Shown here piece by piece: positions 39,001 to 51,000 of a stretch of 64,000 nucleotides of DNA (position 1 is its first letter; the number at the start of each line of letters is the position of its first letter). The position numbers are program-made. The stretch spans positions 352,001 through 416,000 of the forward strand of contig OZ244170.1 of the NCBI GenBank assembly GCA_965216565.1, written 5' to 3'. This DNA is from Bythopirellula sp. (GTDB taxonomy: Bacteria > Planctomycetota > Planctomycetia > Pirellulales > Lacipirellulaceae).

Positions 39001-42000
39001 GTGTTGCGAAGGCGGTCGCCTCGATCCCCGTTTTTTCCTGGTACGCCTTGCTAATTGCCTCGGCGATCGCTTCGGCCTGTTCAGTTTTGACGAGTGAGAC
39101 TGTGCAGCCGCCAAACCCGCCCCCCGTCATTCGCGAGCCAAAGACTCCCTTCTCCAGTCCAAGCTGCTCCGCCAGGGAAACAAGGACATCGAGTTCATCG
39201 CAACTTACCTCGTAATCGTCTCGCAGCGATGCATGGCTCTCGTACATCAGCTGGCCAACCTGCTCCCACTGCCCAGCTTCGCAGGCCGTAGCCGCCTCGG
39301 TGGTCCGCTGGATTTCGCCAATCACGTGCCGCGCTCGGCGGTAGTGCACGTCGTCGATTTTTGCTTTGTTCTCCTCGAGCAGCGACATGGTTGCGTCTCT
39401 CAGAGATTTGACTCCCAGGCTGGCTGCAGCTGCTTCACATTGCTCACGGCGTTCAGCGTACTCGCCACCTGTCAGCTCGTGCTTGACGTTACTATTGATG
39501 ATTAAGATGCTAACGCTCGAGTCGGCTAGCGGGACCATCTGTGGTTCTTGGCTGCGGCAATCGAGTAGCATCAGGTGCCCCGACTGACATAACACAGAAC
39601 TGAATTGATCCATAATGCCACACGGTACGCCAACCTGATGTTCAGCTTGTTGGCTCACCAGGGCCTTCTTAACCGGAGGCATTGACTTGCCGGTGAGTTG
39701 TTCCACAAGTGTCGCGGTGGCAACCTCGAGCGCAGCGCTACTAGAGAGGCCTCCCCCCAGCGGTACAGTTGATTCAATGACGGCATCAAAGGGCAGGGCA
39801 GCGAGACCCTCTGCCCGACAGCCATCGAGCACACAGGCCACATACTGGGCCCATACTGGCAGGCTCGACCGATCCTGACTTTCGAGAGTGATTTCCTGTT
39901 TAGCTTCCACCGTGGAACTGTAGACGCATGCTTCGCCTTCGGCAGCGGAAGTCGGGTCAGCCGCGATCACGGTATATCGATCGATGGCCATTGGCAGCAC
40001 AAAGCCATCGTTGTAGTCAGTATGTTCGCCAATAAGGTTTACCCGCCCCGGCGCTGCGACGACGATTGTTGGCTCTCTTTGGAACTGGTTTCGGAAAGTA
40101 GCGGTCGCTCGCTCCGCCAAATCGGAAAGTGAAACAACTTTGTCCATCACAGGGCCCTGAATCGATCGATTTACGGTTTAAACAGTCCTCGAAATTTCAA
40201 GTTTGCAGCTTGGCAAGATCACGAAGCGATGTCAACGGCTCGCAAGTTCTTGACGAGTACTAAGGTCATCACTAGAAAACTCGCGATGGCACCGAAAAGC
40301 ATGGACCATGCCGCTCCGGCGACGCCAAACTCGCTGATCAGGGGATAAACAGTAAGTGAGATGGCGATAAAGGTGGCTACTTCGCCCCAAAAATTTGCCT
40401 CGGGTAATTGCAGGGCATTCAAGCCATTGGAACTAGTTAGCGCCAGGCTTGTGACCAAGGTATTAACGCTCAGGATGACTAGGACGCTGTTAGCCCAACT
40501 AAATTCGGGGCCAAAGATTTTCTCCAACAACCAGCTCCCGCCGAGAACAAAGATTACGCAGACGGTACCTAGAACGACCGAATAGATGGCTGCTGAACGA
40601 AATAGTTCTACGTGTAAGCCTTTCTTCCCATACTTGTTAAAGGCCCGGATGGCCCGCGGCTGGAGCAGATTGTTAAGGCCCCGTACGAATACCCAAGAGA
40701 ATCCTGCGAGAGTAACACATACTGCCAACACGCCAGCAGCAGAGCGGTCGATCAATCCGGCAACAATCCAGGGCATAGCCACCTGGCAACCATCTCCTAA
40801 GAGTCTGCCGTAGACTAACCATCGCGAGTATGTCCAATGTTGCTTCCAATGGGCTTGGATGGCGCGGCGATCGAACGTGAATTCAACCTTCGGCTTTCCG
40901 ACAAACCAGCTCAAGGCGCCAAAAGCACAAGCAACACTAATAGCTAGAAAACTGTATGGAATCGTTAACTTTTCAAGCCAAGCCATTGCGAGTAGCAATC
41001 CAACTTGAAGCAAGAACACCAGACCATCAACCACTAGGGCAGTTCGAAGTCTAAAATGGGCAAAACAAACTGTGCGCAAGAATTCCCGAAGCATGTAAGG
41101 GACAATCGCAACGCACAGAGCTAGAACGCTGAATGCCATTGTGCTCGCCCCCTCCGTGGCAAACAGGTAGCCACTGTAGAGACATGCAGCGAGGACCGTC
41201 AGCAGGGCCAGGATCAATTGGTGAACCAAAGTGCTGCCGAGTAGGCTAGCCAGCGCGGCATCTTGACGTTGCGCGGAAAACACCATGTACGGTACCGAGA
41301 GGCCCCTTGCTTGAATCATCGACGCGAACAGCACGAGCGAAAGGCACAGAGAATAGATTCCAACCTCTTCCGGAGTGCATACCCGCGCTAGGATTAGCAT
41401 CGTGAGGAAAGTTGTGGTGCTGGCGATGCCCTGGTCGAAAAGGGCCAGGACTCCCTGTCGGGCACCCTTGGAATCTACGACTTTTCTTACCTTTTGAACC
41501 ATCGTGTTCTGTTCTCAGAGAGTTCGCTGGCTGGGGGGCGAATTCTCCGCGTGCTTCATGTCTGCACGTAGTGCTGCGCTATCTGCCCGGGAATAGCACC
41601 ACTCGAGAGGGGATCGGCTGACCACGATCTTACAACCAATGGAAGGCAGTGAGTCGTCTGCGCCTGATTGGCAATTGGGATTGGATTTCGGTTGTCCTCG
41701 ACACTGGTTCCGGTAATTGCCGCGAATCCCTTAATTCACAGTCTCAAAGTCGATTTTCCTTGACAATAAGAAAATGCCGGTTCATTATACACAAGTTAAG
41801 AGGATTGCACGGTTTATGCAGTCTGAAATGAATTGGACGATTCTGAGCCTTCCTGGCTCATAGTCAGCGTTTCAGTGAGTGTCCCCTACAGGACGGGGTG
41901 CTCTCATTCTCATGCCTTTCTTTTTTGGGGAGACTCCACGATGAAGATGATGATGATTTTGCCAGCTTTGGCAATGATGTGCCTCGTGAGCTCGGCTCAA

Positions 42001-48000: not shown

Positions 48001-51000
48001 CGGGCCCACCAGTTCGAGACCGCGAGCATACTTTTGCTAAACGTGTGCGAAACTACCGGGAGCTCAAACGCCAGAACATTGTTATGCAGCAGCGAGATTA
48101 CTCTTGCGGTGCGGCAGCATTGGCCACGATTGCCCACTACTATTGGCGGGACAACGTCGATGAGGAGTTCTTTCTGTCTATACTAGATCACATTCTAACC
48201 CTAGAAGAAGCTAAAGAGCGGGTCGAAAATGGCTTGGCGATGAGCGACCTGCGCCGTGCTGCCGTCGAGGCAGGCTACAAGGCTATTGTGGGTAAGGTTT
48301 CTTTTCAAAAACTCACCGAGTCGAAAGTGCCATTAATCGTGGGCATCACTGTCGACGACTACGATCACTTTGTCGTGTATCGCGGTACTGACGGCATCTA
48401 TGTTTATTTGGCTGATCCAATTCGCGGGAATCTTCGCGTTCGCAGCCATGTGTTCATCAAACAGTGGCAAAAGAATGCAATCTTGGCGATTGCTAAGCCG
48501 GGTGCCAAAGTGAAGGAATATTCCCGTCTGAGCATCACAGGCGACGAGCTATTCCTGGGTCGGCTCAATGATCAGGTTGTGCGGACGGCAGGCGAACGAC
48601 CGATCACGCGTCCCATCTATCGCCCCATCGTACGCTGATCGGCGTGGCGTTAGGGCTATTCTGATTCGTCTGAGAGTGCTTCCTGGATGATCGACGCGAT
48701 GTCGAACTTGCCACTATTGATAGAATCGAAGACCGATTCGTGCATCGTCTGCGCGTCGTAGTCTTCCAGCTTTGCCAAGATCTTTCTGATCGCTACTGGG
48801 GAGTGGCCTTGCTCGCGCAACCATTCCATCAGTTCTTCATGATTCGGGTCTGGAGTAGACATGGGCATTCATCCGTCAGAGTAAAGTTTGGATTAGGCAA
48901 TCGCATCTGCTTTTTCTTCAGCTGCACTTTTGCGAAAGTAATTGGGCACGAGTTGCATGGGATCGATACCGCCTTGGCTGAGGAAAATCTTTGCTCCAAG
49001 TTTACCGATCGCTCTGGCAGTGGGCGACCATAGTTCGGACTCGGCAATTGTGACGCCACTGGGAATACGATCGGCAAGAGTATTCAGCGGCGGCCCTGTG
49101 ACTAGGTCACCGGGTTGAAGCAAGTCGAGCCACTCGTCGATTTTCAACAAAAGCGTATCTGGCGGAGTGACCATCTCAGACTCGCTTAGGAAAGTATAAC
49201 TGGCAGCAAACAGCTCTTGCCGTTGTGCGTCTAGTATTGCCCACACGCGTTGACTCTTTTTGTGCTCACCCGAGTCCGCAATCTTCATTGCGAGTGCGGA
49301 GAGGCTATGTACACCTACCAATTTCGCAGCGCTGGAATAGGCCAGAGTTTTTGCGGTGATGACACCAATCCTCAATCCAGTGAATGAACCTGGACCCGTG
49401 GCAACGCAGAGAAGATCTACGTTTTCGATGTCCCAGCTGCATTTCTTCAGTAGCGAGGAAATCTGCGGGACGAGGGAACACGCAGTTCGTTCATTTTTCG
49501 GTAACGAGACTTCTTGAACAAGCTCGCAGCAATCTTGCCGGACTGTCAGCGTAGCCAGGCTTCCCCGACGGTCGATGGATTCAATAGCAAGTATCCGCAT
49601 GGCAACTTTTTAGTAGATCTGGATCAGCATAGACCAAGTAATTGGGGACGCTTCGTCCGAGTTGAGTCCTGAGTTGCGGGTTTAGCCCGATCGTCCTGCC
49701 GGGCCTCCATTCTCGCTCGTAGAGATGGAATCCGCCACCATTCTCGAACACATTCTTGGCTTGGGCGATCGTAGCAGGAGCAGGGAGGTGCATTCTAACG
49801 AATCGCTGGGCGGATAGAGCGTCCTTGACCGGTCTCTTTTCGGGATTTAGACTAGCCAGTTGGATCGTACAGTCGAGGCCTCTTATTGCTTTTAGGGGTA
49901 ATCGAATTGAGCCCCGTCTCTAAGTCACGATCGCATAACTACAGCCCTTTCAGCGACTGGTTTTTGTTGCAGTGCGTCGAGCGATAATTAGTGACATTCA
50001 CGGTAATCATGTAGCCCTCGAGAGCGTGCTTGCGCACATTGCGGACCAAAAGGTCGATGAAGTCTACTGCTTGGGTGACATCATCGGCTATGGACCCAGT
50101 CCGTGCGAATGTCTCGATGCGGTGATCGACAACGCCAAAGTGTGCCTACTGGGCAATCATGACCAGGGTGCAATGTTCGATCCCGAAGGATTCAATAGTG
50201 GTGCTGAACGCGCCATTTTTTGGACTCGCGAACAACTGGAAAACAGTGGTGGTAGCCCAGATAAAATTGATCGCCGCTGGGATTTTCTGGGAACCTTGCC
50301 GCGTGTTCATCGAGAAGACCCTTGGCTGTATGTTCATGGATCACCGCGTAACCCGGTCAACGAGTATGTCTTTCCGGAAGACATTTACAATCAAAAGAAA
50401 ATGGAAAAGCTTTTTGGGTTGATTACCAAGGGCTGTTTCCAAGGGCACACTCATGTGCCGGGCGTGTTTCTTGAGAGCTTGGAATTTATCACACCCGAGC
50501 AGACTCAAAATGTTTTTGAGATCAAAGACGAGCGGTTCATGGTGAATGTGGGTTCCGTAGGCCAGCCTCGGGATGGAGATCCTCGTTCTTGCTATGTCGT
50601 GCAGGAAGACGACAAGATTACGTTCCATCGCGTGGAGTACGATGTGGATGTAACGGCAAATAAAATCTACCAGACTCCCGATCTGGATAATTTCTTAGGA
50701 GACCGTATCAAGGAAGGACGCTAGCCGATAGCGTGAGTCGCCTCCTGTGATGCAGTTGGCGGCTGGGGTCTCAGACAATCTGCCAATTCTACTGGTAGCC
50801 TCAACCCACCCCCCTCCCAGATTGTTGCTCTACCAGTGTAAAATATTTCTTTCTTTCCTCAGTCTTTTTTGCGAGAGCGTCCCACGTGGAACAACGACGA
50901 GTCATCCTATTTTTAATGCTCTCGTTCACGGTATTGGTGCTCAATGGCCTGCTGTTCCCGCCTGAAGAAGTTGCGGACAACAAACTCCCTCCTAAGGGAA

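What a model noticed while it worked through the whole genome (the two positions that open the first line are those of the whole stretch)
41941..48638. Fap-like secretion locus with double-glycine-leader beta-strand subunits
A FapF-like outer-membrane transporter (g00297), an active-site-bearing FapD-like C39 peptidase (g00298) and a second beta-barrel (g00296) are encoded with two small secreted proteins (g00294, g00295) of a new family that carry, after the Sec signal, a bacteriocin-type leader (MSDxEAxxVRG) and then only beta-strands. The leader makes them the predicted C39 substrates and subunits of a planctomycete Fap-like fibre; paralogues g01447, g03196 and a second barrel pair g02455-56 lie elsewhere.
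Evidence so far: Swiss-Prot matches to FapF/FapD; family of 534 clusters with no Pfam, leader motif in 132 of the 150 best; AlphaFold model helix-leader plus four long strands. FapF-FapD adjacency in all 5 relative loci fetched, with the second barrel in 3 and a subunit gene in 3.
(Added by a program. Inside this text positions count along the whole contig: contig position 352,001 is position 1 of the stretch shown here. "Call 12" and the like, gene names such as g00115 and contig names such as C1 are that model's own, and its searches are not shown. The text may have been shortened before it was handed on; [...] marks where a part breaks off. The agent that wrote the report below was given it as the finding of a first reader that could run no searches.)

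Follow-up and report, generated by a model that had tools for sequence, protein, structure and literature searches.

The report
Fap-type exporter with leader-tagged cargo
A planctomycete carries relatives of the Pseudomonas amyloid-export pore and protease next to small, undescribed secreted proteins whose conserved tag matches one in the Pseudomonas protein FapE, which points to where this protease probably cuts and to a possible new surface fibre.

Summary
The locus is real: two small secreted proteins, a divergently encoded 10-stranded porin-like barrel, a FapF-like pore and a C39 peptidase with intact catalytic residues. It is a conserved module. In 301 genomes of the order, all 47 with this peptidase also have the small proteins (48 have them), within 10 kb in 44 of 47. 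The leader is real but not double-glycine: the residue after RG is Gly in 0 of 141 relatives. It aligns in register with an invariant RG motif in true Pseudomonas FapE, and that 12-residue stretch is their only shared sequence. Cargo behind the leader varies: a four-strand small-residue sheet here, a cationic peptide in one paralogue, curli-like repeats in one relative. Best reading: a Fap/Fil-type export pathway whose periplasmic peptidase recognises and probably removes the leader, with the abundant beta-core forming a surface polymer. Cleavage and fibre formation are inferred, not shown. It is not a Fap member (no FapC or FapE found). This scan reported the leader idea on other DNA before, and once a similar planctomycete set. 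My paper searches did not find it in print.

The parts
41760..41788 (+). sigma-70-like promoter match upstream of subunit 1 (10 of 12)
   Evidence: 4 sites found against 4.5 expected in shuffles, so weak
41941..42366 (+). Subunit 1 (P0001, 141 aa): Sec-type signal (about aa 1-21, judged by eye), two-part leader (aa 22-53), four-strand core (aa 63-139)
   Evidence: no Pfam or NCBIfam family at E <= 0.001
42064..42099 (+). Leader motif of subunit 1, aa 42-53 (MSD..VRG plus Met); predicted cut after aa 53
   Evidence: cut site inferred
42413..42448 (+). Terminator-like hairpin after subunit 1 (14 bp, U tail)
   Evidence: z -7.8
42941..43408 (+). Subunit 2 (P0002, 155 aa), about 40% identical to subunit 1, same layout
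43067..43102 (+). Leader motif of subunit 2, aa 43-54 (MND..IRG plus Leu)
43461..43503 (+). Terminator-like hairpin after subunit 2, A run before and U run after
   Evidence: z -5.2
43525..43566 (-). Terminator-like hairpin after the second barrel gene
   Evidence: z -3.8
43576..45147 (-). Second barrel (P0003, 523 aa): signal-like N-terminus, low-complexity and Cys-rich linker, 10-stranded barrel (aa 202-523) of the Legionella MOMP/Lpg1974-BBP7 kind
   Evidence: AlphaFold pLDDT 91, pTM 0.85; 9nh1 Foldseek E 2e-9, VIA Z 22.4, rmsd 2.8, 233 aligned; Atlas features 0.96 to PF05150 clusters, 0.95 to a BBP7 cluster
45728..47830 (+). FapF/FilC-like outer-membrane pore (P0004; start may be 45761): about 400 aa Pro/Gln-rich N-terminal region with 8 P-F-x-W-x-N-like repeats, barrel at aa 437-696 with a PTG motif
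47868..48638 (+). Stand-alone C39 peptidase (P0005, 256 aa), FapD/FilB-like, signal-like N-terminus, Q74/C80/H167/D183

Best explanation
This is a Pirellulales branch of the Fap/Fil-type export pathway. (1) All five proteins cross the inner membrane by Sec (inferred from their N-termini). (2) In the periplasm the C39 peptidase binds the cargo's second leader, a short helix plus [MLVI]-[ST]-D-x-[EDQ]-[AG]-x-x-[VI]-R-G, and most likely cuts after R-G-X, the register shared with FapE (motif shown; binding and cleavage inferred). (3) The cargo leaves unfolded through the FapF-like pore (homology shown; transport inferred from FapF). (4) Outside, the roughly 90-residue core, four strands with one face of near-invariant Gly/Ala/Ser, packs sheet on sheet into a polymer, probably a surface fibre, with the variable hairpin facing out (pattern shown; polymer inferred). 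The leader works as a portable address, since other cores sit behind it. The 10-stranded barrel is a dedicated partner, possibly an anchor or second channel, as FilD is a second barrel in Fil loci (linkage shown; role a guess). Odds: one functional module 0.9; leader recognised by the peptidase 0.8; cut after RG-X 0.6; core forms a fibre 0.55.
For: Co-occurrence: 47 of 47 genomes with the peptidase (E <= 1e-20) have the subunit family and 47 of 48 with the family have the peptidase, among 301 genomes; the exception is a match at a contig end in a 370-contig assembly. They lie within 10 kb in 44 of 47. All four gene types are present in 45 of 55 fetched planctomycete-type loci. Bona fide FapE (above the NCBIfam cut-off) has invariant D, L, R, G in the same register, and hhalign pairs exactly this 12-column stretch. 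Rouse 2017 (passages and supplement 6 read): FapD Cys38Ala abolishes secretion and no FapE peptide starts before residue 72. Bobeica 2019 (passages): C39 recognition rests on hydrophobic -4, -7 and -12; here -4 and -12 are hydrophobic throughout. Non-Gly residues follow the Gly in FapE (Arg) and FilA (Gln), while Cupriavidus and Polymorphobacter Fap-like proteins end in true RGG. Leader-only profile hits 73 frames, core-only 22, both 21, in 16,483 frames. Median identity is 45% for leader and 29% for core. Codon use of subunits 1 and 2 is at the 98th and 93rd percentile for likeness to highly expressed genes, against 28-54 for the machinery genes, and each subunit gene has its own hairpin. One relative carries curli-like repeats behind the same leader (NCBIfam CsgA E 7.7e-7, below cut-off).
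Against: No cleavage, secretion or fibre data exist for this family. Position -7 is Ala/Gly/Ser, not Leu, and the residue after RG is never Gly, so two canonical C39 determinants are missing. The FapE evidence in print is absence of peptides, which a reviewer of that paper called less convincing (supplement 8 passage), and a cut after Arg would look like a tryptic end. The hhalign match is short and of low probability (18.5%, E 0.0013). The family profile includes the leader, so 'constant leader, variable core' is partly circular, and the short low-complexity core profile is insensitive. Genomes are kin, and some of the 55 loci are the same contig fetched twice. The monomer model has pTM 0.40. 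The codon reference set was 14 genes, two of them probably wrong picks. 31 of 103 subunit matches lie away from a peptidase gene, and this genome has a second barrel pair with no peptidase or subunit in the 9 kb fetched.
Confidence: 0.6

Rival explanations
1. Same machinery and leader, but the cargo is a set of soluble secreted peptides (antimicrobial, signalling or matrix-modifying), as in bacteriocin systems with a constant leader and variable core. No fibre is formed.
For: Up to 11 matches in one genome; cores of 29-144 aa; a cationic His/Lys-rich core in the paralogue at contig 1,751,692 and in P0139 and P0240; UmoA-like cargo behind a similar two-part leader beside FapF and C39 in two other loci.
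Against: The locus-linked cores keep a strict every-second-residue Gly/Ala/Ser face over four strands, which suits packing in a polymer better than a free peptide (inference). No Pfam or NCBIfam bacteriocin match. Known FapF cargo is fibre-forming. The cationic paralogue lacks the high-expression codon signal (58th percentile).
Confidence: 0.2
2. The leader is bound but not cut, or is cut elsewhere (for example after R-G-X-G). It serves as a targeting or anti-aggregation segment, and the peptidase's real substrate is the pore or another protein.
For: No Gly at -1 and no Leu at -7; Gly follows X in 133 of 141. Rouse 2017 also raises FapF as a substrate. The conserved upstream helix (L31, M34, G35, L36) is longer than a plain cleavage tag needs.
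Against: Catalytic residues are invariant. Conservation falls sharply after RG-X in divergent members, where the Gly after X is kept in only 54 of 72. The leader pattern was found in no N-terminal region of the planctomycete pores examined; the two pattern hits lay elsewhere.
Confidence: 0.12
3. The four-strand core is a small outer-membrane barrel former (three or more copies making one barrel, like trimeric autotransporter anchors), not an exported fibre.
For: Four antiparallel strands with one small-residue face; the two locus proteins end in Phe or Leu.
Against: The face that would meet lipid is polar in 36-49% of sequences at positions 68, 83, 87, 89, 97 and 101, and the last residue is Lys, His or Arg in 49 of 119.
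Confidence: 0.05
4. The small genes are chance neighbours and the pore is an uptake channel of the COG4313 kind.
For: FapF's closest solved relative is an importer (Rouse 2017); FapF and FapD scores are far below the curated cut-offs.
Against: 47 of 47 co-occurrence and 44 of 47 adjacency, in several different gene orders. Rouse 2018 states that C39 peptidases are not reported beside COG4313 uptake pores.
Confidence: 0.03

Closest known systems
Fap functional-amyloid system of Pseudomonas (fapABCDEF; FapD periplasmic C39 peptidase, FapF trimeric 12-stranded pore)
   Same: FapF-like barrel with PTG motif beside a stand-alone active-site C39 peptidase; cargo leader in register with FapE's D-x-E-L-x-x-L-R-G-R.
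   Different: No FapC or FapE match in 5 of 5 carrier genomes tested, with positive controls ringing; cargo is an unrelated four-strand core; pore gene precedes the peptidase gene; the pore's N-terminus is Pro/Gln-rich with W-x-N repeats, by eye not a coiled coil; an extra 10-stranded barrel; subunit genes have their own terminators.
Acinetobacter putative Fil pilus system (NCBIfam FilA, FilB C39 peptidase, FilC pore, FilD FadL-type barrel)
   Same: Pore, C39 peptidase, second barrel and a secreted subunit with a leader-like motif ending in Gly-Gln.
   Different: No FilA match in 5 genomes (no positive control run); second barrel is 10-stranded MOMP/BBP7-like, not FadL-type; no FilE/FilF-like genes in the locus as read.
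Double-glycine leader peptides of PCAT/AMS bacteriocin transporters (C39; LahT, ComA)
   Same: Spacing of hydrophobic -12 and -4, acidic -8 and Gly -2; peptidase matches LahT 6mpz at E 3e-6.
   Different: Leader follows a Sec signal; peptidase is not fused to an ABC transporter; -7 is small and -1 is never Gly.
Legionella MOMP/Lpg1974 (PF05150) and planctomycete BBP7 (PF07585) barrels
   Same: Fold of the second barrel.
   Different: No Pfam hit at the cut-off for P0003; the linked subgroup is one branch of a family found in 131 of 301 genomes.

Membership tests
Fap system | FapF-type outer-membrane pore | tested here: met
   Homologous barrel (E 2e-17 NCBIfam, 6e-16 PDB), far below the equivalog cut-off, so a relative and not an orthologue by that model
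Fap system | Stand-alone exported C39 peptidase with catalytic Cys/His/Asp | tested here: met
   export signal judged by eye
Fap system | FapB/FapC subunits with Fap repeats | tested here: not met
   FapC model: 0 of 5 carrier genomes, 2 of 2 Pseudomonas controls; minimal Fap repeat pattern in 0 of 72 cores from loci and 2 of 148 family proteins, neither from this window
Fap system | FapE homologue | tested here: not met
   0 of 5 carrier genomes, 2 of 2 controls; similarity limited to 12 leader columns
Fap system | Periplasmic coiled coil and trimeric state of the pore | not tested
   N-terminal region is Pro/Gln-rich by inspection; no coiled-coil predictor or oligomer model run
Fap system | Amyloid fibre formation | not testable with these tools
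   needs purified protein or cells
Fil system | FilA (DUF6160) subunit | tested here: inconclusive
   No match for the locus proteins or in 5 genomes, but that genome search had no ringing control
Fil system | FadL-type second barrel FilD | tested here: not met
   Model is a 10-stranded barrel, best match 9nh1 Z 22.4; FadL homologue Z 7.4, rmsd 6.1; no FilD hit
Double-glycine leader (PCAT substrates) | Gly-Gly/Ala/Ser at -2/-1 | tested here: not met
   Residue after RG: Met 43, Lys 22, Gln 17, Phe 17, Leu 15, His 11, Glu 7, Arg 4, Ser 2, Thr 2, Tyr 1, Gly 0 of 141
Double-glycine leader (PCAT substrates) | Hydrophobic -12 and -4, acidic -8 | tested here: met
   -12 hydrophobic 99%, -4 Val/Ile 119 of 119, -8 Glu/Asp/Gln 103 of 119
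Double-glycine leader (PCAT substrates) | Leu at -7 | tested here: not met
   Ala 91, Gly 45, Ser 5 of 141
Double-glycine leader (PCAT substrates) | Cleavage by the cognate C39 peptidase | not testable with these tools
   needs an in vitro or in vivo assay

The most novel reading that the evidence does not exclude
FapD/FapF pairs are a general leader-addressed secretion pathway. A periplasmic C39 peptidase with relaxed P1 specificity cuts after [VIL]-R-G-X and licenses export of unrelated cargo, which would fix the FapE cut at RGR|Y. In Pirellulales the main cargo is a non-amyloid-repeat fibre of a new architecture: four-strand subunits zipped through Gly/Ala/Ser faces and anchored on a dedicated 10-stranded porin, accounting for some of the unassigned surface fibres of these bacteria.
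Probability: 0.35. Interest if true: 0.85.

Novelty: new variant of a known kind. Interest (0 to 1): 0.62.

Why it matters
The FapD substrate is described as undetermined in the 2017 and 2018 papers read, and the passages of a 2026 preprint say only that it is involved in precursor processing. This locus gives a sharp prediction (cut after RG-X, Gly not needed at P1) backed by near-perfect gene linkage and testable with synthetic peptides. It also offers candidate genes for Pirellulales surface fibres, which a 2021 strain description reports without a protein assignment in the passages read. A portable leader that exports unrelated cargo could be useful for engineered protein display.

Tried and rejected
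Complex prediction of the peptidase (aa 50-245, no alignment) with the leader (aa 22-66): no verdict, score 0.85 but an unrelated-protein control scored 0.72; not used either way. Fold searches with the subunit model: nothing at E <= 0.001 in Foldseek, best Z 3.1 in the wide search; this shows neither a known nor a new fold. The PDB sequence search with the family profile gave one signal-peptide match at E 0.12. The Atlas gave only unnamed planctomycete clusters. No RNA holder was listed among sequencing runs, and I laid no reads. Scans of the named genome collection with subunit alignments could not be run, so names come from the peptidase scan (best 80 of at least 596). The promoter match is at chance level. 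Literature: 9 searches listed no paper describing this family or the RG-X leader; most subscription papers are not held. Rouse 2018 reports fapD-fapF pairs in five further phyla in Fig. S1, a picture I could not see, so planctomycete pairs may already be charted there. Supplementary Fig. 18 of Rouse 2017 (FapE GG/GA motifs) was also not visible, and bioRxiv supplements are closed.
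Full report
Observation. The pore matches FapF over its last 260 residues (NCBIfam E 2e-17, PDB 5o67 E 6e-16). The peptidase matches Pfam C39 and NCBIfam FapD and FilB and keeps Gln74, Cys80, His167 and Asp183 in 30 of 30 aligned sequences. Both score far below the curated cut-offs, so they are relatives, not model orthologues. The two small proteins and the second barrel have no Pfam or NCBIfam family at E <= 0.001. The strict leader pattern occurs four times in the genome's 39,264 stop-to-stop frames, each in a family member. The two paralogues and the second barrel pair exist.

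The second barrel. AlphaFold on a 27-row alignment gives a confident 10-stranded barrel (pLDDT 91, pTM 0.85). Its best structural match is Legionella porin I, 9nh1 (Foldseek E 2e-9; Z 22.4, rmsd 2.8, 233 aligned), and the Atlas places it with PF05150 and BBP7 clusters. The wider family is in 131 of 301 genomes; by my reading of that table the 43 genomes with matches at E <= 2e-72 are all among the 47 peptidase carriers. That count is partly circular, because the alignment came from such loci.

Linkage. In 301 genomes of the order (at least 85% complete), the subunit profile hit 48 and the peptidase 47. All 47 peptidase genomes have subunits, within 10 kb in 44. The three others (G528, G553, G577) are assemblies of 210-1340 contigs, and in G528 and G553 a subunit sits beside the second barrel on another contig. 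Of 103 subunit matches, 72 are linked to a peptidase gene. In a phylum-wide draw, 5 of 401 genomes matched, all in the same order. Of 55 fetched planctomycete-type loci, 45 hold all four gene types. Of the other ten, seven are cut short by a contig end or my fetch window, two (L026, L027) have a divergent peptidase and no second barrel, and one (L067) has neither barrel nor subunit in 8 kb flanks. Some loci are the same contig fetched by two tools, and the genomes are kin, so these are not independent events. Gene order and orientation of the subunits vary. Named carriers are Pirellulales and Planctomycetaceae records such as Bremerella cremea and a Bythopirellula MAG.

The leader. Behind the signal comes a short helix (near-invariant L31, M34, G35, L36) and then [MLVI]-S-D-x-[EDQ]-[AG]-x-x-[VI]-R-G. 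The strict form is in 118 and a relaxed form in 141 of 146 relatives. Set against the PCAT consensus (Bobeica 2019, passages), -12 and -4 are hydrophobic and -8 acidic, but -7 is Ala/Gly/Ser and -1 is never Gly. So it is not a double-glycine leader in the strict sense. It is the FapE type. Pseudomonas proteins above the FapE cut-off carry D-x-E-L-x-x-L-R-G-R with D, L, R, G invariant in 9 of 9 aligned FapE-like sequences, and profile comparison pairs just these 12 columns (probability 18.5%, E 0.0013). Other Fap-like and Fil loci show RGG, Gly-Gln, Gly-Lys and Gly-Thr endings in the same spacing. Rouse 2017 (passages and supplement 6) showed that FapD's Cys is needed for secretion and found no FapE peptide before residue 72, looked for GG/GA motifs and left the target open. 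My inference is that periplasmic C39 peptidases read this leader and accept a non-Gly P1. It has not been shown.

The cargo. In the locus proteins the core is predicted as four long strands (pLDDT 75.5, pTM 0.40). One face is Gly/Ala/Ser at 90% or more in most positions of all four strands; the other is variable and often polar. That argues against a membrane barrel and fits sheet-to-sheet packing in a polymer (inference). The leader travels with other cores. A leader-only profile hits 73 frames and a core-only profile 22; median identity is 45% in leaders and 29% in cores among 72 of 79 subunits with a clear anchor (seven were left out because the pattern failed). Both figures lean on a leader-containing profile. 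One paralogue and two relatives have a cationic His/Lys-rich core, and one relative has curli-like repeats (CsgA model E 7.7e-7, below cut-off). Subunits 1 and 2 and the beta-type paralogue have codon use like highly expressed genes (98th, 93rd, 98th percentile), the machinery genes do not (28-54, small reference set), and each subunit gene ends in a strong hairpin. This is the pattern expected of an abundant structural protein, but it is indirect.

Comparison. It works like Fap and Fil: Sec export, a periplasmic C39 peptidase and a FapF-type pore. It is not a Fap member: FapC and FapE models found nothing in 5 of 5 carriers and rang in 2 of 2 Pseudomonas controls. It differs from Fil in the type of second barrel and in the subunit.

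Prior knowledge. FapD-FapF pairs without Fap subunits were noted in five further phyla in a 2018 review (passages; the figure was not visible). Nine paper searches listed nothing on this family or on an RG-X leader. This scan's own notes hold the leader idea for eight other genomes and a similar planctomycete set in one. I had written my reading before seeing them and tested the points here; they are not independent support.

Verdict. A real, conserved, apparently undescribed variant of Fap/Fil-type secretion. The module and the FapE-type leader are well supported; the cut site and the fibre are predictions. Interest 0.62.

Noticed in passing
G000:C1:1751692-1752036 (-), locus L013: Paralogue with the full leader but a cationic His/Lys-rich core that looks amphipathic; relatives P0139 and P0240 share it. 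Possibly a second cargo class such as an antimicrobial or metal-binding peptide.
   Followed up: partly
L042:8730-9338 (+), G640: Leader followed by curli-like repeats (NCBIfam CsgA E 7.7e-7, below cut-off), next to the peptidase, pore and second barrel: curli-type cargo on a Fap-type exporter.
   Followed up: partly
window 45728-47030 (+): N-terminal region of the pore holds 8 P-F-x-W-x-N-like repeats; 6 of 59 related pore frames have two or more and many have one. Role unknown.
   Followed up: partly
L120:2179-2676 and L111:427-927 (+): UmoA-like proteins (NCBIfam E 5e-8 and 1e-10, below cut-off) with a similar two-part leader directly before FapF-like and C39 genes in a Pseudomonas sp. and a Desulfobacula MAG.
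   Followed up: partly
L026:5580-5975 (-) and L027:10226-10675 (+): A divergent subtype: distant peptidase, no second barrel, and leader plus a short Val/Lys/Arg-alternating beta core. G664 carries both subtypes.
   Followed up: no
G000:C1:3003564-3007672, locus L014: Second divergent barrel pair (64% and 44% identical) with no peptidase or subunit in 9 kb; may serve the orphan paralogues.
   Followed up: partly
L044 (G512) and G469:C56: Tandem duplication of the C39 peptidase gene.
   Followed up: no
L018:10498-12383; L071-L073: Pore or peptidase gene split over two frames in these assemblies; sequencing error or pseudogene not distinguished.
   Followed up: no
L023:8865-10337 and L024:8261-9595: FapF-like pores of Cupriavidus and Polymorphobacter carry an RGG- or RGA-ending leader-like stretch in their N-terminal part, by eye; not seen in the planctomycete pores.
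   Followed up: no
window 38966-41502 and 48656-54713: Flanking genes look like housekeeping or envelope genes (galactokinase-, flippase-, TsaB-, YidC-, MnmE-like). Labels are recalled from sequence, not tested.
   Followed up: no
window 57001-64000: GC falls to 44-47% against 50-58% in the rest of the window; possibly an acquired island.
   Followed up: no
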